Of a DNA stretch of 64,000 bases, positions 35,851 through 42,274 are shown in pieces. The first letter of the stretch is position 1; every line of letters starts with the position of its first letter. This DNA comes from Candidatus Eiseniibacteriota bacterium. GTDB taxonomy: Bacteria; Eisenbacteria; RBG-16-71-46. The position numbers were made by a program, and so were the translations under genes. The notes below the pieces were generated by a model. It made no database searches. It was not told the DNA's origin and saw only the letters and a program-made list of their open reading frames with translations. The stretch is taken from the NCBI GenBank assembly GCA_036505355.1, contig DASXTP010000155.1, positions 3,182 to 67,181 of the forward strand. The letters are read 5' to 3'.

Positions 35851-36926
35851 CGGGCGACCTCGGCGTGGGGCTCGAGCCGCATCGCGCTCCGCACTTCTTC
35901 CATGGTGGCTTCGGCCACCTTGCGGGCGCGGCGGTTGCCGTCGCTCACCACGTCCCGCACGGCGTCCGGGTCCGCGGCCCAGCGGGCGCGACGGTCGCGG
36001 ATCTCGGCCAGGGCTGCCGCCAGCACCCGGGCCAGGTGCTGCTTGTCCGGCACGCAGGCCAGCGTGCCGGCGCGACAGCGGCCGGCGATGTCCTCGGCCT
36101 CGCCCGGGTTGAACTTGCGATGGTACTCCCACACCACGCAGCCCGGGTGCCCGTCGGTCGGATCGGGCCCCGGCCGTCCCGGGTCGTCGGCCCGGATCTT
36201 CTTCGGATCGGTGTACGCTTGGCGCACACGCGCCGCGATCTCTTCGGCCGAATCGGCGAGCAGGATGGTATTGCCCACCGACTTGCTCATGCGGTTGCCG
36301 TCCAGCCCACGCAGGCGCGGGAACGCGGTGAGCTGGGCCTCCGGTTCCGGGAACACCGGATCCCGATCCCGGCAGTACAAGAAGTTGAAGCGCCGTGCCA
36401 GCTCGCGGGTCAGCTCGACGTGCGGCACCTGGTCCTCGCCCACCGGGACGTGGCTCGCCTTGTAGAGCAAGATGTCGGCGGCCTGCAGCACCGAGTACCC
36501 CAGGTGGCCGTACGAGATCGTCGCCTCGTCCAGATGGAGGTCGCGGATCTGTTCCTTCAACGTCGGAATGCGCTCGAGCCGCGCCTTGCTGACCAGCATC
36601 GACAGCAGCAGGTGCAGCTCGGCGTGCTCCTTGATCGCCGACTGGACGAAGATCACGCTGCGCTTGGGATCGAGCCCTGCCGCCAGCCAGTCCACCACCA
36701 TCTCGTGGATGTCGGTCTGGAGCATCGAGGTGTCCTCGTGGCCGGTGGTGAGCATGTGCCAGTCGGCCACCATGTGAAAGTTGTTCCAACCGGCATCCTG
36801 AAGTCGCACCCAGTTCTCGAGGGCGCCCACGTAGTTGCCGAGGTGCAGCCGACCGGTAGGCCGCATCCCGGAGAGGATCCGCCGCACCGGCAGCCCGGCT
36901 CCCGGCCCACCCACCGCCGCCGTCAC
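35847..36926 (-). CDS. trpS: Tryptophan--tRNA ligase
   Basis: PTGRLHLGNY (HIGH-type) and KMSKS motifs. The GTG at 36926 overlaps the upstream stop (GTGA). Confidence 0.92.
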   Translation of the reverse strand: MTAAVGGPGAGLPVRRILSGMRPTGRLHLGNYVGALENWVRLQDAGWNNFHMVADWHMLTTGHEDTSMLQTDIHEMVVDWLAAGLDPKRSVIFVQSAIKEHAELHLLLSMLVSKARLERIPTLKEQIRDLHLDEATISYGHLGYSVLQAADILLYKASHVPVGEDQVPHVELTRELARRFNFLYCRDRDPVFPEPEAQLTAFPRLRGLDGNRMSKSVGNTILLADSAEEIAARVRQAYTDPKKIRADDPGRPGPDPTDGHPGCVVWEYHRKFNPGEAEDIAGRCRAGTLACVPDKQHLARVLAAALAEIRDRRARWAADPDAVRDVVSDGNRRARKVAEATMEEVRSAMRLEPHAEVAR

Positions 36927-37579
36927 AGGCTCATCCCTTGCCGGGACACGCCGAACAGACCCAGGCACGCGTTCACCGCCAGGCTGAGCGGCACGTCGAG
37001 CACCACCCGCGCCACCCGGGGCGAACTCGCGATCAGGACCACCAGCATCAACCCCACCAGCCGGAACTGCTGCAGCACCAGGATGTGGCGCAGCGGCAGG
37101 AAGCGCATCAGCACCCACGAGCCGTCGAGCGGCGGGATGGGAATCAGGTTGAAGAGTCCGAGAGCGCAGTTCCACAGCACGCCGGCGTACCCCATGATGC
37201 GCAGCGGCGCCCAGAAGCCCGCCTCGGGAGCCAGCCGCGTCAGCGCCGCGAACAGCACGGCGAGCAGGAAGTTGGACGCCGGACCAGCCAGCGCCACCTT
37301 GACCGGATCGTTGCGCGGACGACGGAGGTTCGCCCAGCGGATCGGGACCGGCTTCGCCCATCCGAACAGGAACGGGGCATGGAGCAGCAGCAGCAGCCCG
37401 GGCAGGATGAGGGAGCCCACCGGGTCGACGTGCGGAAGCGGGTTGAGCGTCAGGCGGCCCTGATCCCGCGCGGTGGAATCGCCGTTCCACAGCGCGACCA
37501 GCCCGTGGGCACACTCGTGCACGACGATGCTCAGCACGAACACCGGGAAGGCCAACAGGATGCCGGGATCGAAGCTCAT
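36923..37579 (-). CDS. Site-2 protease family (M50) membrane metalloprotease
   Basis: HECAHG zinc motif, polytopic, NLIPIPPLDG second motif. Confidence 0.8.
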   Translation of the reverse strand: MSFDPGILLAFPVFVLSIVVHECAHGLVALWNGDSTARDQGRLTLNPLPHVDPVGSLILPGLLLLLHAPFLFGWAKPVPIRWANLRRPRNDPVKVALAGPASNFLLAVLFAALTRLAPEAGFWAPLRIMGYAGVLWNCALGLFNLIPIPPLDGSWVLMRFLPLRHILVLQQFRLVGLMLVVLIASSPRVARVVLDVPLSLAVNACLGLFGVSRQGMSL

Positions 37580-37749
37580 TCCGCCAGCTCCTTGAGTGGG
37601 GCCCGGGGAAAGGCGCCGCGCCGACTATAGAGGATGGGCGAACCGGGTCCAAGCAAGGTGCTGCGGGCCGCCGGGTTGGCGGACCCCGGCGGGATCTCGG
37701 GGGCACGCACGCCGGAGCGGGTTGCCCGCCCCGGTATACTGCGAGGCAC

Positions 37750-38244
37750 ATGAGCGGGACAAGGGGACTTGAGCAGCTTCTCGGCCAGCCGGTGCCGGAC
37801 CTGACGTTGCCTTCCCCGTCCGGGACCTTTTCCTTTCGGCAGTTCGTCGGCATCCAGCCGTTGGCGTTGTTCTTCTACATCCACAACGGCACGCCGGGCT
37901 GAATCCGCGAGCTTCGCGAGTTTCGCGAGCATCATCACGAGTTCCAGGAGCAACGAGTCGCCCTGGCCGGCGTGAGCGGCGACACGCTCGACAGCCATCG
38001 GACCTGGATCCGCCGGCTCAGGCTCCCCTATCCGCTGCTGTCGGATCTAGACCTCAGCGCCGGGAACGCCTTGGGCCTGATCCGGCGAATCGGGATCGGC
38101 GAGTGGCGCCTCGAGCTCTTCCGGCGGACCACGCTGCTGGTGGACGCGGCCGGCCGGATGGCCATGATCTGGGGCCAAGTCAAGATCCGGGGTCACGCCG
38201 CCGACGTGCTGCGCGCTGCACGAACGGTGGGGGTCGGGTCGTGA
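37750..38244 (+). CDS. bcp: Bcp/PrxQ-type peroxiredoxin with in-frame TGA (37900-37902) at the peroxidatic Cys position; candidate selenoprotein, or a pseudogene
   Basis: ATG 37750 and the track ORF 37972..38244 are in the same frame, with TGA 37900 as the only stop between them. The read-through product aligns with Bcp: LALFFYIHNGTPG[U]IRELREF...LAGVSGD...SH..W......LPYPLLSDLD...RRTTLLVD. Confidence 0.6.
37913..37929 (+). promoter_or_regulatory. Hairpin downstream of the in-frame TGA (candidate bacterial SECIS)
   Basis: UCGCGA-GUU-UCGCGA is a 6-bp perfect stem with an additional U.G pair. The loop begins 18 nt after the UGA with G in its first position. It lies within a triple CGCGAG-NUU repeat. 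Confidence 0.4.
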
Positions 38245-38253
38245 TCGAGCGGT

Positions 38254-38272
38254 GCCGCGAAACGCTCGCGGC
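38254..38272. terminator. Hairpin between convergent prx and PP2C genes
   Basis: GCCGCGA-AACGC-TCGCGGC, a 7-bp stem, with no clear U tract. Confidence 0.3.
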
Positions 38273-38296
38273 CGATCGAGCGTCTTCGAACAGGGG

Positions 38297-40093
38297 CTAG
38301 GTGGGCAGCGCCTTGACCACCATCAAGGTGAGGTCATCGTCGCGACCGCGCTCGCCGGCCCAGCCCTCGACCGCCTCCACCAATCCCTCCAGGATTTCGG
38401 CCGCGCTGCGGCCCGCCAGCGAGACGATGGCCTGCTCGATGCGTCGCTGCCCGAAGTGCTCGCCGCTCGGTGACTGGGCCTCCGAGAGTCCATCGGTGTA
38501 GAGCAACAGCACGTCGTCCACCCCGAGCGCGATCGGCTGGTCTTCGTACTGGGCGTCGGGCAGGACTCCGAACGCGACGCCGCCCTCCAGCAGGTACTCC
38601 ACCGTCCCTCCGCGCCGCAGCAGAATGGGCGGGTTGTGCCCCGCGTTCGAGTAGATCAGCACCCGGTTCTTGAAATCCAGCACGCCGTAGAGCGCGGTCA
38701 CGAACTTGTTGCGATCCGTGCTCTCGTAGAGCAGCGAGTTGACCTTGCGCATCACCGCCCGGATCGCGAATTCGTTGCGGATCTCGGCCAGCAGGCTCAT
38801 GCGGAAGCCGGCCATCAGCAGCGCCGCCGGGATGCCCTTGCCCGAGACGTCGGCGATCGCGAGCCCCAGCCGGGTGTCCGAGACCTGGATGAAGTCGTAG
38901 TAGTCCCCTCCCACCTCGCGATGCGGCCGTGCGGTGCCGGCAAGCTCGAACCCCGGAATCTCCGGCGCCCCGGTGGGCAGGAAGGACGCCTGGATTTCGC
39001 GCGCGATGGCGAGCTCCTTCTCGAGACGTCGTGTCTCGAGCAGCTCACGGGTCAGCCGGGCGCGCTCGACCGCCACCGCCGCCTGGGTGGCGAACGCCGA
39101 CAGCAGCTCGAGATGATCCTCGTGGTAGGCGTCCTCGTGGTCGCTCTCCAAGTTGAAGACCCCAATGGTGCGTCCGCCGACGATCAGCGGAGCGGCCAGC
39201 TCGCTGCGGGTCTGGGATCGGGCAGCCACGTAGCGCGAGTCGCGGCGCACGTCGGGCACAATCACCGCCTCGCCGGTCTTGGCCACCCAGCCCACCAGGC
39301 CCACTCCGACCCGCAGGCCGAAGGCTTCGTCGGAGCCCTCCGGATAACCCACGTCGCTCACCTTCTCGAGCGCCAGGGTCTTGCGGTTCACCAGATACAC
39401 GGCCGCCGCGTCGTAGTGGATCACCTGGCGCAGCGACTGGAGCATGGCGTCGATCAGCTCGTCGAGGTCGAGCCGGGCGAGTAGGGTCTTGCTGATCTCG
39501 AGCAGCACGTCCTTCTCGAGCGCGCGCTGTTCGGCCTCCTGATAGAGCAGGGCGTTGTCCAGCGCGATCGCGATGTGCTCCGCCGCCTGCTCGAGCCGGT
39601 CGAGATCCTGGCGGGTGAAGGCCACGCCGTCCCGGCGGTCGAGACATTCGATGGCGGCGAAGATCTCCCCGCGCCGGTAGAGCGGCACGACCAGCGCCGA
39701 GTGAAAGGCGGGAACCGCGCCCTCCAGCGTCGGGCGTGGGTCGGCAGGGCCGAGCCACAGCGACTTGCCGTGGTTGACCACCCAGCCGGCCAGCCCCTCA
39801 CCGCGCCCCACCCGATGGACGACCGGGGCCGCCCCGGGGGTCTCGGGGAAGTCACGCGCGATCCACCGGGCACCGCCGCGCCGCGCGACCCAGATCCGCG
39901 CCGTCTCGCAGTCCAGCAGCCGGCGGCAATGAACGCTCAGCGTTCGCAGCAGCTCGCGAAACTTCTCGCTCCCGGTGGCTCGTTCGCCCAAATCGACGAC
40001 CGCCGGAAGCAGCTCGGCCACGCGCGTCAGGGTCTCGGTCTCCGCTCCGGGGGGCGCGGACGGCGTGTCCGTCGGTGGGATGGAATCGCGCAT
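38297..40093 (-). CDS. GAF-GAF-PP2C (SpoIIE-type) serine phosphatase
   Basis: Trimmed to MRDSIPP at 40093. Two GAF domains, then the PP2C region (REIQASFLP, GGDYYDF, IADVSGKGIPAALLM, YTDGLSEA). The remaining 383 aa of track ORF 38297..41242 are antisense to the ATPase gene. Confidence 0.85.
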   Translation of the reverse strand: MRDSIPPTDTPSAPPGAETETLTRVAELLPAVVDLGERATGSEKFRELLRTLSVHCRRLLDCETARIWVARRGGARWIARDFPETPGAAPVVHRVGRGEGLAGWVVNHGKSLWLGPADPRPTLEGAVPAFHSALVVPLYRRGEIFAAIECLDRRDGVAFTRQDLDRLEQAAEHIAIALDNALLYQEAEQRALEKDVLLEISKTLLARLDLDELIDAMLQSLRQVIHYDAAAVYLVNRKTLALEKVSDVGYPEGSDEAFGLRVGVGLVGWVAKTGEAVIVPDVRRDSRYVAARSQTRSELAAPLIVGGRTIGVFNLESDHEDAYHEDHLELLSAFATQAAVAVERARLTRELLETRRLEKELAIAREIQASFLPTGAPEIPGFELAGTARPHREVGGDYYDFIQVSDTRLGLAIADVSGKGIPAALLMAGFRMSLLAEIRNEFAIRAVMRKVNSLLYESTDRNKFVTALYGVLDFKNRVLIYSNAGHNPPILLRRGGTVEYLLEGGVAFGVLPDAQYEDQPIALGVDDVLLLYTDGLSEAQSPSGEHFGQRRIEQAIVSLAGRSAAEILEGLVEAVEGWAGERGRDDDLTLMVVKALPT

Positions 40094-40288
40094 CCGAGGC
40101 AACCTAGCACGCGCTTCGTGGGGGTGCCAGCCACGCCCCGTCCCCCGCCGGCGCGCCGCCTGGTGCCCGGCTCGGTCCACACTGCCGTGCCGCGAGCGGC
40201 CGCCAAATCCCACTGAAGGTCGGAGCCGGAGCGCCGATACACAGAGGTAGGCGTTCCTGCCGCTGCCCACCCCGACCCGGAGCCGAGC

Positions 40289-42274
40289 ATGACCAAGGAG
40301 CACAAGCGCCTGGGCGACCTGCTGATCGAGGCCGAACTCATCACGCCTCAGGATCTGAGCGATGCGATCGCCGAGCAGCGACGAACCGGCGAGCTGCTGG
40401 GCGCGACCCTGATCCGCATGGGCCGCATTTCCGAGCCGGTGCTGATGAAGCACCTGCAGAGCCAGCTCGGCCTGCCGCTCGTGGACCTGGGGCAGCGCGT
40501 GGCCGACGAGCAAGCCCTGGCGCTCATCAAAGAGGAGCTGGCTCGCAAGTACGTCGCCCTGCCGCTCGAGATCGAGAGCCGCTCCACCCTGGTCGTCGCC
40601 ATGGCCGACCCGCTCAACGTCGCGGCGCTGGAAGACCTGCGCTTCCACAGCGGCATGTTCATCCGCCCGCTGCTTGCCACCTCGAGCTCCATCCGCGAAG
40701 CGATCGAGCACTACTACCACATCGACAACTCCGTGAACGAGGTGATCAGCAACATCATCAGCAGCGAGGAAGAGGTCGTGGTGAGCGCGGTCCGCGACGA
40801 CGAGCAGGCCGAGGCCATCGACGACCTGATCCGCGAGGCCGAGGGCCGACCGATCGTGCGGCTCACCAACTGGATCCTGCATCGCGCGGTCGAGGAGCGG
40901 GCGAGCGACATCCACATGGAGCCCCAGGAGCGGCACCTGGTGATCCGCTTCCGGGTCGACGGCCTCCTGCACGAGGTCCAGCGCCTGCCCAAGTGGACGC
41001 AAGGCGCCGTGGTCTCCCGGATCAAGGTGCTGTCCAATCTGGACATCGCGGAAAAGCGCCAGCCGCAGGACGGCCGCTTGGCGGCGGAGATTCGCGGGCG
41101 CCGGGTGGACATGCGCGTCTCGACCTTGCCCACCACGCACGGCGAGAAGGTCGTGATCCGCGTGGTCGACCAACAGCGCGTGGCGCTCGAGCTGGACCAG
41201 CTGGGTTTCCTGCCCGACGACCTCGATCATGTCCGGCGCCACCTCGAGCGTCCGCAGGGCATCCTGCTGGTGACCGGTCCGACCGGATCCGGCAAGTCGA
41301 CCTTGCTCTACTCGGCCCTACGGCACGTCCAGCACGAGACCAAGAACATCGTTTCGGTGGAAGACCCGGTCGAATACCAGATCCCTGGCATCAACCAGGT
41401 GCAGGTCGACGAGAAGGCCAAGAAGACGTTTCCGGCCGCGTTGCGGGCCATCCTGAGGCAGGACCCGGACGTGATCATGATCGGCGAGATCCGCGACCGG
41501 GAAACGGCGCAGATCGCGTTCCGCGCCTCGGTCACCGGGCATCTGGTGCTGAGCACCGTCCACACCAACGACGCCGCCGGCGCGGTGACGCGCCTGGTCG
41601 ACCTGGGGCTCGAGCCCTTCATGGTGGCCACGTCCCTGATCGGGGTGGTCGCCATGCGGCTGGTGCGCACCCTGTGCCCGCGCTGCCTCGAGCCTTACGA
41701 GGTCAATGCGTCGAACCTCAACCGGCTGGGGGCCCGCGAGCTGGCCGAGGGGACGGTGCTCCTGCACCGCGGCCGCGGCTGTCCGCACTGTCGCCACACC
41801 GGCTACCAGGGGCGCATCGGGATCTTCGAAGTGCTGGAGGTCAACGAAACGATCCGCACGCTGATCAACCAGAACGCGGCCGACGCGACCATCCGTCATG
41901 CCGCGATCGAGGCCGGCATGCGCTCGATCGGCGAAGACGGGCTGAAGAAGGTGCTGGGGGGATCGACCACGCTCGAGGAAGTGACCCGCGTCGTGTACCT
42001 GGCCGACCAGGGTGCGAAGGTGTGCCCTTCCTGCACCATGGTGCTCGCCAAGGACTACGAGTACTGTCCGAGCTGCGGGGAATTCGTCGGCGAACACTGC
42101 GAGAGCTGTCGCCGTCGCGTCCACCCGGGCTGGACGTTCTGCCCGTTTTGCGGCGAGCCCTCGGCCCAGGGGGCGGCCGAGGCGCAGCGGGAGGTTGTGG
42201 ACGACCGGACGCGGCGAGTCGCGCGTCTCGCGCGACGTCGCGGCGCCGAGCCACCTCTGAAGCGGGCGTCATGA
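40289..42274 (+). CDS. GspE/PilB-family secretion ATPase with MshEN-like N-domain and an extra C-terminal double zinc ribbon
   Basis: The N-terminus has two RLG..LI..G.I....L...L..Q-like motifs. Walker A is GPTGSGKST. Canonical tetracysteine CPRC...CPHC is present, followed by an extra CPSC..CPSC..CESC..CPFC tail. Confidence 0.85.
   Translation: MTKEHKRLGDLLIEAELITPQDLSDAIAEQRRTGELLGATLIRMGRISEPVLMKHLQSQLGLPLVDLGQRVADEQALALIKEELARKYVALPLEIESRSTLVVAMADPLNVAALEDLRFHSGMFIRPLLATSSSIREAIEHYYHIDNSVNEVISNIISSEEEVVVSAVRDDEQAEAIDDLIREAEGRPIVRLTNWILHRAVEERASDIHMEPQERHLVIRFRVDGLLHEVQRLPKWTQGAVVSRIKVLSNLDIAEKRQPQDGRLAAEIRGRRVDMRVSTLPTTHGEKVVIRVVDQQRVALELDQLGFLPDDLDHVRRHLERPQGILLVTGPTGSGKSTLLYSALRHVQHETKNIVSVEDPVEYQIPGINQVQVDEKAKKTFPAALRAILRQDPDVIMIGEIRDRETAQIAFRASVTGHLVLSTVHTNDAAGAVTRLVDLGLEPFMVATSLIGVVAMRLVRTLCPRCLEPYEVNASNLNRLGARELAEGTVLLHRGRGCPHCRHTGYQGRIGIFEVLEVNETIRTLINQNAADATIRHAAIEAGMRSIGEDGLKKVLGGSTTLEEVTRVVYLADQGAKVCPSCTMVLAKDYEYCPSCGEFVGEHCESCRRRVHPGWTFCPFCGEPSAQGAAEAQREVVDDRTRRVARLARRRGAEPPLKRAS

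What the first reader, a model, noticed from the sequence alone, without database searches (positions are those of the whole stretch)
37750..38244. Peroxiredoxin with in-frame TGA replacing the peroxidatic cysteine: candidate selenocysteine protein missed by ORF calling
From ATG 37750 to the stop at 38242-38244 the frame has one interruption, TGA at 37900-37902. It falls exactly in the motif F-F-Y-x-x-x-x-T-P-G-[TGA], where Bcp/PrxQ enzymes have TPGC. The sequences on both sides align with that family (LAGVSGD, SH..W, LPYPLLSD, RRTTLLVD), so the downstream part is still under a coding-like pattern.

A 6-7 bp hairpin with a GUU loop starts 11 nt after the UGA. Its loop lies ~18 nt downstream with G first, which is within published bacterial SECIS constraints.

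Sec-containing peroxiredoxin-like proteins are known in bacteria, so the class is established. This instance would still be mis-annotated as two fragments or as a pseudogene. The sel genes are not in the window.
Basis: partly seen in the sequence, partly recalled or inferred. Interest (0 to 1): 0.65.

Follow-up and report, generated by a model that had tools for sequence, protein, structure and literature searches.

The report
Selenocysteine peroxiredoxin (BCP/PrxQ type), mis-called
This is a genuine selenoprotein gene: a small peroxide-detoxifying enzyme of a soil bacterium (Candidatus Eisenbacteria) whose catalytic residue is selenocysteine encoded by UGA. It is a known kind of selenoprotein, and gene callers routinely truncate it or read it wrongly.

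Summary
Window 37750-38244 (+) is one 164-codon AhpC/TSA (BCP/PrxQ-type) peroxiredoxin gene. Its single in-frame TGA (37900-37902) sits at the peroxidatic position (G-T-P-G-U).

The same TGA is in the same column in 27 species of 16 genera of one Ca. Eisenbacteria family, at 46-66% protein identity. Purifying selection is equal on both sides of it.

A 7-bp hairpin with a GUU triloop (37913-37929) starts 11 nt after the UGA. It pairs in 20/20 aligned orthologues, covaries at 3 pairs and freezes synonymous sites. It is degraded in the two Cys (TGC/TGT) forms nested inside the clade. selD genes of relatives carry a hairpin of identical geometry (+11 to +27, GGN triloop).

The genome has tRNA-Sec and selB. 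selA and selD are missing from this 77%-complete MAG but present in the same genus and in 56-57 of 61 genomes searched (the window's MAG plus 60 relatives).

Public protein collections hold mostly truncated C-terminal fragments, or read-throughs under the wrong code.

Sec-peroxiredoxins (T/SxxU) are an established selenoprotein family, so this is a new member of a known kind. Minor peculiarities are the lack of a resolving Cys and Ile/Val/Leu in place of the motif's Pro.

The parts
37750..38244 (+). Complete selenoprotein gene: 164-residue BCP/PrxQ-type peroxiredoxin (Sec at residue 51), terminal stop TGA at 38242-38244
   Evidence: The profile of 20 orthologues matches PDB BCP structures (5enu E=1.8e-33). 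The AF2 model has pLDDT 89.2 and pTM 0.85. Foldseek's top hits are BCP/PrxQ with TM 0.86-0.92. An ATG/GTG start is aligned in most orthologues.
37900..37902 (+). UGA = selenocysteine codon (U51), peroxidatic position of the T-P-G-U motif
   Evidence: TGA is in the same alignment column in 20/20 aligned orthologues. 27 of 28 orthologues in 206 genomes of the phylum have exactly one TGA. The TGC/TGT (Cys) forms are L032 and P0005. The codon is invariant in contigs of 4 metagenome runs.
37913..37929 (+). Bacterial SECIS hairpin: 7-bp stem (37913-37919 / 37923-37929) with GUU triloop (37920-37922), at +11 to +27 from the UGA
   Evidence: RNAalifold predicts exactly these 7 pairs, and all 140 cells are paired. 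Covariation occurs at 3 pairs; the score is 0.287 against 0.114 for shuffles (0/500 reach it), and slid controls are <=0.072. Synonymous sites are frozen. The hairpin alone has -6.4 to -11.1 kcal/mol, against +0.3 and -1.6 in the Cys forms. selD of 12 relatives has the same geometry.
37891..37893 (+). Catalytic Thr48 codon of the TxxU motif
   Evidence: Thr in 18/20 orthologues and Ser in two.
38125..38127 (+). Codon of Arg126, the conserved active-site Arg of peroxiredoxins (aligned with the R of canonical IERTTF)
   Evidence: Invariant in all 26 sequences of alignment A2, canonical Bcp paralogues included. It uses 4 synonymous codons.
37879..37881 (+). Ile44 codon, at the place where the canonical PxxxTxxC motif has Pro
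   Evidence: I/V/L in the Sec orthologues of the clade (T in the Cys form L032) and P in the canonical paralogues. It aligns with the Pro of 5enu.
37972..38244 (+). Spurious 90-aa 'gene' (GTG start): the C-terminal fragment that gene callers report instead of the full protein
   Evidence: P0003 (90 aa, 100% identical, 55% coverage) is the product on record for this sequence.
38297..41242 (-). Convergent neighbour: GAF-GAF-SpoIIE (PP2C-type phosphatase) sensor protein. It is context only and not part of the element; its 3' end is syntenic in most orthologous loci.
   Evidence: Pfam hits. A conserved 3' block lies at the end of alignment A3.
36923..37579 (-). Divergent upstream neighbour: peptidase M50-like ORF, followed by a class-I Trp/Tyr-tRNA synthetase gene. 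Context only.
   Evidence: The tRNA-synt_1b gene is also upstream of the Cys-form locus L056.

Best explanation
The locus is one intact gene for a selenocysteine-containing peroxiredoxin of the BCP/PrxQ subfamily.

Proposed mechanism of decoding: during translation the UGA at 37900-37902 is decoded by Sec-tRNA(Sec), delivered by SelB. SelB is recruited by a minimal SECIS hairpin (7 bp, GUU triloop) that starts 11 nt downstream, inside the coding sequence. The hairpin doubles as the codons for the conserved R-E-F-R segment of helix alpha2.

Proposed enzyme chemistry: Sec51, activated by Thr48 and Arg126, attacks the peroxide and forms a selenenic acid. The clade has no conserved second Cys, so an external thiol (thioredoxin- or glutaredoxin-type) must reduce that intermediate. 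This is a '1-Sec' mechanism.

Shown here: the conserved UGA, coding constraint on both sides, a covarying and synonymously constrained hairpin, loss of the hairpin in Cys revertants, tRNA-Sec and selB in the genome, and the BCP fold.

Inferred, not shown: actual Se incorporation, peroxidase activity, and the identity of the reductant.
For: UGA conservation. TGA is in the same column in 20/20 aligned orthologues at 46-66% identity. 27/28 orthologues among 206 genomes of the phylum carry exactly one TGA, all in one family and 16 genera.

Coding constraint on both sides of the UGA. Median NG86 dN/dS is 0.45 upstream and 0.51 downstream over 190 pairs. Pfam AhpC-TSA spans the TGA.

SECIS.
- RNAalifold recovers the 7-bp hairpin with 100% pairing. 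Pair types are UA/UG/AU/CG, GC/UA/GU/AU, and AU to GC in L027.
- Codons 56-59 are CGC 20/20, GAG 19/19, TTT 19/20 and CGC 20/20. Other invariant Arg codons use 3-4 synonyms, and the other conserved Phe codons are TTC in 18/19 and 18/18.
- It meets all four constraints of the published bSECIS model: loop 3-9 nt, stem 4-16 bp, G then G/U at the start of the loop, 16-37 nt from UGA to loop, and MFE <= -7.5 (PMC13188914). Here the loop is GUU, the stem 7 bp, the spacing 17 nt, and the MFE -14.2 for UGA plus 46 nt.

Natural controls. The two Cys forms nested in the Sec clade keep the residues R-E-F but have CGG GAG TTC CGC or CGG GAG TTC GCC. The hairpin energy there collapses to -1.6 and +0.3 kcal/mol.

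Same SelB target geometry. selD of 12 relatives has UGA followed by UGGGUCC-GGN-GGACCUG at +11 to +27.

Machinery. tRNA-Sec scores 65.7 bits with anticodon TCA. selB scores 341 bits against a cut-off of 242. Among the 61 genomes searched (the window's own MAG plus 60 relatives), 57 have a tRNA-Sec hit of at least 63 bits, 56 have selA and 57 have selD, and most selD genes are themselves UGA-containing.

Not an assembly artefact. The TGA and positions 37904-37930 are invariant in contigs of 4 runs that differ at 37896, 37903, 37931 and 37932.

Fold. AF2 gives pLDDT 89.2. The best structural matches are BCP/PrxQ (5enu TM 0.86/0.89, X. campestris PrxQ).
Against: selA and selD were not found in this MAG. 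The gene upstream of selB looks like MurA by eye (no family search was run) and not like SelA, and no selD lies beside tRNA-Sec. The MAG is only 77% complete, so this is weak negative evidence.

No other convincing selenoprotein gene was found in the assembled part.

The hairpin of the single sequence is not more stable than shuffles (z = -0.45). No Rfam family matches it.

The hairpin has no bulged U as in E. coli fdhF (recalled, not tested).

There is no direct evidence for selenium in the protein or for expression.
Confidence: 0.94

Rival explanations
1. Pseudogene: a nonsense mutation inactivated an ordinary Cys-peroxiredoxin, and the downstream half is decaying.
For: A single genome viewed alone shows only an interrupted frame. 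Gene callers report fragments.
Against: The same TGA is retained in 27 species of 16 genera. No further stops or frameshifts occur. dN/dS downstream (0.51) is about the same as upstream (0.45). The catalytic Arg126 downstream is invariant.
Confidence: 0.005
2. UGA is read as something other than Sec. Either the genetic code is reassigned (UGA = Trp or Gly), or near-cognate read-through inserts Trp or Cys.
For: Two database records give W or G at this position (P0004, P0002). P0004 translates only with TGA=W.
Against: The gene itself and its neighbours end in TGA. selA and selB hits in the 61 genomes searched contain no internal stops, so TGA is a normal stop in this lineage. The UGA sits exactly where a redox-active Cys/Sec is required. 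It is always followed by a covarying hairpin that is lost when the codon becomes TGC/TGT. tRNA-Sec and SelB are present. The W/G records are gene-caller choices on 1-1.5 kb contigs.
Confidence: 0.03
3. Two separate products: a 50-aa N-terminal peptide, and an independently initiated C-terminal fragment (GTG 37972) with a non-peroxidase role.
For: An in-frame GTG exists at 37972, and 90-132-aa products are what databases list.
Against: Codons 52-74, between the TGA and the GTG, are conserved in frame in all orthologues. The internal start is not conserved: fragment lengths vary from 90 to 132 aa. Neither piece alone would contain the full Thr/Sec/Arg active site. The AF2 model is one compact Prx domain.
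Confidence: 0.01
4. Sequencing or assembly error created the TGA from TGC/TGT.
For: The genome is a fragmented MAG (181 contigs).
Against: Contigs from 4 metagenome runs keep the TGA; three of them come from related strains 90-96% identical over the stretch, and the 100%-match run may be the source sample. 26 other species' assemblies show it too.
Confidence: 0.002

Closest known systems
Sec-containing peroxiredoxin (Prx) selenoprotein family, active site T/SxxU. PrxU of Eubacterium acidaminophilum (Sohling 2001) is the characterised example. The family is catalogued in Zhang et al. 2006 (PMC1794560) and the 2026 review PMC13188914.
   Same: The domain is PF00578. Sec replaces the peroxidatic Cys in TxxU. 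Cys homologues exist. The SECIS lies immediately downstream, inside the ORF. That family also shows repeated Cys/Sec exchanges (5 Cys-to-Sec events in Zhang 2006).
   Different: This clade is of the BCP/PrxQ subtype and is confined to one family of Ca. Eisenbacteria. The Pro of the PxxxTxxU motif stressed in the review is Ile/Val/Leu here. No NCBIfam selenoprotein model reaches its cut-off. I could not fetch the catalogued examples to measure how related they are.
BCP/PrxQ thiol peroxidases: B. ambifaria 5enu, X. campestris PrxQ 5iiz/3gkk, E. coli Bcp. Also the canonical Bcp paralogue of the same Eisenbacteria genomes (TPGCTREAC).
   Same: The fold matches (TM 0.83-0.92). The T-P-G-[C/U] motif, the conserved Arg and the size (~160 aa) agree. 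The profile E-value is 1.8e-33.
   Different: Sec stands in place of Cys. There is no resolving Cys at +5 or anywhere else conserved. There is no motif Pro. Identity to the paralogue is only 37-41%, and the two are separated with 100/100 support in the tree.
Bacterial SECIS consensus (bSECISearch model; E. coli fdhF SECIS as archetype)
   Same: It is a hairpin inside the ORF. The stem begins 11 nt after the UGA. The small apical loop starts with G followed by U. All four published constraints are met.
   Different: It is very compact (7 bp plus a triloop) with no bulged U. No Rfam model detects it. The geometry is identical to the selD SECIS of the same lineage, which suggests a lineage-typical minimal SelB target.
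Prx-like thiol:disulfide oxidoreductase selenoproteins (UxxC / UxxU)
   Same: PF00578-related thioredoxin fold with Sec.
   Different: The motif here is TPGU followed by I/V-R-E, with no Cys or Sec at +3. It is therefore not this family.

Membership tests
Peroxiredoxin (AhpC/TSA, PF00578) | Sequence match above the curated threshold, continuous over the domain | tested here: met
   83.1 bits against a cut-off of 26, over residues 12-137 and across the UGA.
Peroxiredoxin (AhpC/TSA, PF00578) | Thioredoxin-like Prx fold with the peroxidatic residue in the first turn of helix alpha2 | tested here: met
   The AF2 model has pLDDT 89.2, and helix 49-60 begins two residues before U51. Foldseek TM is 0.86-0.92 to BCP structures.
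Peroxiredoxin (AhpC/TSA, PF00578) | Active-site Thr/Ser at -3 and a conserved Arg | tested here: met
   T48 is Thr in 18/20 and Ser in 2/20. R126 is invariant.
Peroxiredoxin (AhpC/TSA, PF00578) | Pro at -7 of the PxxxTxxC/U motif | tested here: not met
   Ile44 in the window. It is I/V/L in the Sec orthologues, V and T in the two Cys forms of the clade, and Pro in the canonical paralogues and 5enu.
BCP/PrxQ subfamily | Closest sequence and structure relatives are BCP/PrxQ enzymes | tested here: met
   The best NCBIfam hits are PrxQ (68 bits) and Bcp (48.6 bits), both far below the equivalog cut-offs. The PDB profile's top 11 are all BCP/PrxQ, and so are Foldseek's top 18.
BCP/PrxQ subfamily | Resolving Cys (at +5, or the X. 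campestris-type distal Cys) for the atypical 2-Cys mechanism | tested here: not met
   Position +5 is the invariant Arg56. No other conserved Cys exists in the 20 orthologues. The enzyme is therefore of 1-Cys (1-Sec) type, as some BCPs are.
Bacterial selenoprotein | In-frame UGA conserved among orthologues, aligned with Cys in homologues | tested here: met
   27/28 orthologues carry TGA. The Cys forms are G022/G157 and P0005. The canonical paralogues have Cys.
Bacterial selenoprotein | bSECIS hairpin downstream of the UGA that fits the consensus model and is evolutionarily supported | tested here: met
   The hairpin is lost in the Cys forms.
Bacterial selenoprotein | Complete Sec machinery (selA, selB, selD, tRNA-Sec) in the same genome | tested here: inconclusive
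   tRNA-Sec and selB are present. selA and selD were not found in this 77%-complete MAG. All four are in the same-genus genome G001 and in most of the 61 genomes searched.
Bacterial selenoprotein | Selenium demonstrated in the polypeptide | not testable with these tools
   This needs 75Se labelling or mass spectrometry.

The most novel reading that the evidence does not exclude
The clade may be a mechanistically distinct '1-Sec' BCP. It has lost both the resolving Cys and the near-universal active-site Pro, and it was retained as a selenoenzyme for a long time in a soil lineage. Its recycling partner, and perhaps its substrate, would then differ from classical thioredoxin-dependent BCPs. The compact triloop SECIS, fixed at +11 to +27 and shared with selD, would define a minimal SelB recognition module for this phylum.
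Probability: 0.25. Interest if true: 0.45.

Novelty: new member of a known kind. Interest (0 to 1): 0.3.

Why it matters
The practical value is for annotation. In a collection of 5.8 billion proteins, this enzyme family appears almost only in two wrong forms: active-site-less C-terminal fragments named 'peroxiredoxin Q/BCP', or read-throughs under the wrong genetic code. No NCBIfam model would rescue it. Antioxidant and selenium-use inventories of Ca. Eisenbacteria, a common soil phylum, are therefore incomplete.

Biologically it adds three things:
- a well-supported, lineage-restricted Sec-BCP clade;
- natural Sec-to-Cys revertants that lost the SECIS, which is a clean illustration of coupled codon and RNA-structure evolution;
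- a very compact SECIS whose geometry is shared with selD.

It does not change what is known about selenoproteins in general.

Tried and rejected
- Rfam scan of 37700-38300 at E<=10 gave no SECIS or other credible family.
- The single-sequence fold significance was not distinguishable from shuffles, so the hairpin claim rests on comparative data only.
- The first protein alignment (A1) was garbage for 13 loci, because genome-search loci are not re-oriented for minus-strand matches. It was redone as A2.
- Two scans of the own genome for further selenoprotein genes were run. One looked for TGA flanked by high-GC3 open frames. The other looked for TGA plus a hairpin of the prx/selD geometry. They returned only ordinary gene junctions, off-frame noise and the prx gene itself, and the GC3 filter even missed the prx gene. 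This is therefore no evidence either way.
- I looked for selA upstream of selB and for selD beside tRNA-Sec, as in relatives. I found a MurA-like ORF (judged by eye) and unrelated secreted proteins.
- The '1 TGA' flagged in the G038 homologue is only its terminal stop.
- Literature searches for Eisenbacteria plus selenoprotein, and for Sec plus BCP/PrxQ, found no prior description. The library is incomplete.
- A sigma-70-like promoter upstream of the gene was considered. In the window the GTTGCC and TATACT elements are only 7 nt apart, so I make no promoter claim.

Full report
**Observation**

Window 37750-38244 (+) reads as one frame with a single internal stop, TGA at 37900-37902 (codon 51). 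The context is FFYIHNGTPG-[TGA]-IRELREFRE, and the terminal stop is TGA at 38242-38244. Mechanical ORF listing splits it into 37750-37902 (50 aa) and 37972-38244 (90 aa). With the TGA read through, Pfam AhpC-TSA matches residues 12-137 in one stretch (83 bits, cut-off 26). The best NCBIfam models are PrxQ and Bcp, all below their equivalog cut-offs, and no dedicated selenoprotein model fits. The described hairpin is present: UUCGCGA-GUU-UCGCGAG at 37913-37929.

**Comparative test of the UGA**

A six-frame search of the window's own genome plus 60 relatives found 20 orthologues at 46-66% identity. Each has exactly one internal TGA. A separate group of canonical Bcp paralogues at 33-44% identity has none. 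Protein and DNA alignments put the TGA in the same column in all 20 (T-P-G-TGA). One related gene (L032, genome G022) has TGC there.

Across 206 species-level genomes of the phylum, 28 carry the orthologue. All 28 are in one family (17 genera). 27 have TGA, and one (G157, same genus as G022) has none. Record titles identify the lineage as Candidatus Eisenbacteria, from soil MAGs.

Pairwise NG86 dN/dS is 0.45 upstream and 0.51 downstream of the TGA (medians of 190 pairs), so the downstream part is not relaxed.

Contigs of four metagenome runs keep the TGA and all of 37904-37930. They differ at 37896, 37903, 37931 and 37932 and at many other sites. A nonsense mutation, a pseudogene and a sequencing error are thereby excluded.

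**The SECIS**

On the 20 sequences, RNAalifold predicts exactly the 7-bp hairpin, paired in every sequence. Three pairs covary:
- columns 20-36: UA/UG/AU/CG;
- columns 21-35: GC/UA/GU/AU;
- columns 26-30: AU changed to GC in L027.

The covariation score is 0.287 against 0.114 for shuffles (0/500 reach it). Slid controls give 0.013-0.072.

Synonymous sites are frozen. Codons 56-59 are CGC 20/20, GAG 19/19, TTT 19/20 and CGC 20/20. Other invariant Arg codons use 3-4 synonyms. The other conserved Phe codons are TTC in 18/19 and 18/18, as expected at 69% GC.

The element meets the published bacterial SECIS constraints (PMC13188914, read): loop 3-9 nt, stem 4-16 bp, G then G/U opening the loop, 16-37 nt from UGA to loop, and MFE <= -7.5 kcal/mol. 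Here the loop is GUU, the stem is 7 bp, the spacing is 17 nt, and the MFE is -14.2 kcal/mol for UGA plus 46 nt.

Two weak points remain. The single-sequence fold is not better than shuffles (z = -0.45). No Rfam model hits it.

**Natural controls**

In a maximum-likelihood tree the Sec clade is separated from the canonical Bcp paralogues with 100/100 support. Both Cys forms (L032 and the metagenomic P0005) are nested inside it, so they are most simply Sec-to-Cys reversions. P0005 is encoded with TGT under the standard code, in a syntenic locus. Both Cys forms keep the residues R-E-F, and P0005 keeps the full R-E-F-R. Their codons are CGG GAG TTC CGC (P0005) and CGG GAG TTC GCC (L032). The hairpin evaluates at -1.6 and +0.3 kcal/mol, against -6.4 to -11.1 in the Sec forms. 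The RNA constraint therefore exists only where the UGA exists.

**Same target geometry in a bona fide selenoprotein gene**

Most selD genes of relatives contain one TGA. In 12 of them the UGA (motif C-A-G-U-A-S-K) is followed by UGGGUCC-GGN-GGACCUG. This occupies +11 to +27 with the triloop at +18 to +20, exactly the offsets of the prx hairpin.

**Machinery**

The genome is a 3.03-Mb, 181-contig MAG, 77% complete, with 69% GC.
- tRNA-Sec is present: 65.7 bits, with ARAGORN giving anticodon TCA.
- selB is present: 341 bits, cut-off 242.
- selA and selD were not found.
- The ORF upstream of selB looks MurA-like by eye, and no selD lies next to tRNA-Sec.

Among the 61 genomes searched (the window's own MAG plus 60 relatives), tRNA-Sec of at least 63 bits occurs in 57, selA above cut-off in 56 and selD above cut-off in 57. 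The same-genus genome has all of them. The gaps in this MAG are therefore best explained by incompleteness, but that is inference.

TGA is a normal stop in this lineage. The gene itself ends in TGA, and selA and selB hits have no internal stops.

**What the protein is**

A profile of the 20 orthologues finds BCP/PrxQ structures first (5enu E=1.8e-33, then X. campestris BCP). The AlphaFold2 model (pLDDT 89.2, pTM 0.85) places U51 at the start of helix 49-60. It superposes on BCP/PrxQ structures with TM 0.83-0.92. Thr48 and Arg126 are conserved.

Two features depart from the canonical BCP:
- No resolving Cys. Position +5 is the invariant Arg56, and no other Cys is conserved.
- The Pro of PxxxTxxC/U is Ile/Val/Leu throughout the Sec orthologues.

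I therefore infer a 1-Sec mechanism in which an external thiol reduces the selenenic acid. This was not tested.

**Annotation status**

Of the 47 homologues in the 5.8-billion-protein collection, 43 are 90-132 aa, too short to reach the TGA; the four I read begin after it. This includes the window's own 90-aa product, and JGI names several of them 'peroxiredoxin Q/BCP'. One full-length record (P0004) translates only with TGA=W, and its DNA shows TGA plus the same hairpin. Another (P0002) has Gly at the site, probably a code-25 call. That last point is inference.

**Comparison with what is known**

Sec-containing peroxiredoxins with a T/SxxU site are an established bacterial selenoprotein family with repeated Cys/Sec exchanges (PMC1794560; PMC13188914; Sohling et al. 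2001 as cited there). More distant Sec-BCPs with the canonical motif (FYPKADTPGU, FYPKDNTSGU) also occur in other families of this class.

I found no paper linking Eisenbacteria and selenoproteins, and none describing a Sec-BCP/PrxQ explicitly. The searchable library is incomplete, and I could not fetch the catalogued reference sequences.

**Verdict**

It is a new member of a known kind, with modest peculiarities. Its main value is correcting systematic mis-annotation.

Noticed in passing
Relatives' selD loci L057-L068 (e.g. G001:C157:27780-28080, minus strand): selD of this lineage is itself a selenoprotein (C-A-G-U-A-S-K). Its SECIS is UGGGUCC-GGN-GGACCUG at +11 to +27 from the UGA, the same 7-bp/triloop geometry as the prx SECIS. 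In most relatives selD lies next to tRNA-Sec.
   Followed up: partly
L070 (G054:C1:2563915-2564346), L072 (G060:C53:15147-15584), L073 (G052:C220:1968-2351, minus strand): Other families of the same class carry more distant (28-31% identity) BCP-type peroxiredoxins that also have UGA at the peroxidatic position (FYPKADTPGU, FYPKDNTSGU, FYVLAFTGGU). Sec-BCPs are therefore recurrent in this phylum.
   Followed up: partly
G000:C102:60720-65133 and G000:C169:13922-17354 (own genome, outside the window): Unlike in relatives, no selD lies beside tRNA-Sec in this MAG. The ORFs there look like secreted hypothetical or metallophosphatase-like proteins by eye. The ORF immediately upstream of selB looks MurA-like by eye, not SelA-like. 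selA and selD are missing from the assembly.
   Followed up: partly
window 37722-37749, and alignment A3 columns ~82-125: Most orthologues share GTTGCC, then about 18 nt, then TAnnnT, ending 8-12 nt before the start codon. This may be a promoter with a very short or absent leader. In the window the two elements are only 7 nt apart because of a ~10-nt gap, so the -35-like element may not be used here.
   Followed up: no
window 38297-41242 (-): A 981-aa GAF-GAF-SpoIIE (PP2C phosphatase) sensor gene converges on the prx gene, with about 50 bp between the stops. Its 3' end is conserved next to prx in most orthologous loci (stable synteny).
   Followed up: no
window 37845-37876 (+): The consensus scan flags a terminator-like hairpin plus T-run (CGTCGGC…GTTGGCG TTGTTCTTCT) inside the CDS, just upstream of the UGA. 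The T-run is the LFFY codons, so this is probably chance (0.2 expected per region).
   Followed up: no
Own genome G000 versus relatives: In the window's own MAG only the Sec-form peroxiredoxin was detected at E<=1e-10. The canonical Cys Bcp paralogue (TPGCTREAC), present in most relatives, was not found. This could be due to the 23% of the genome that is missing.
   Followed up: no
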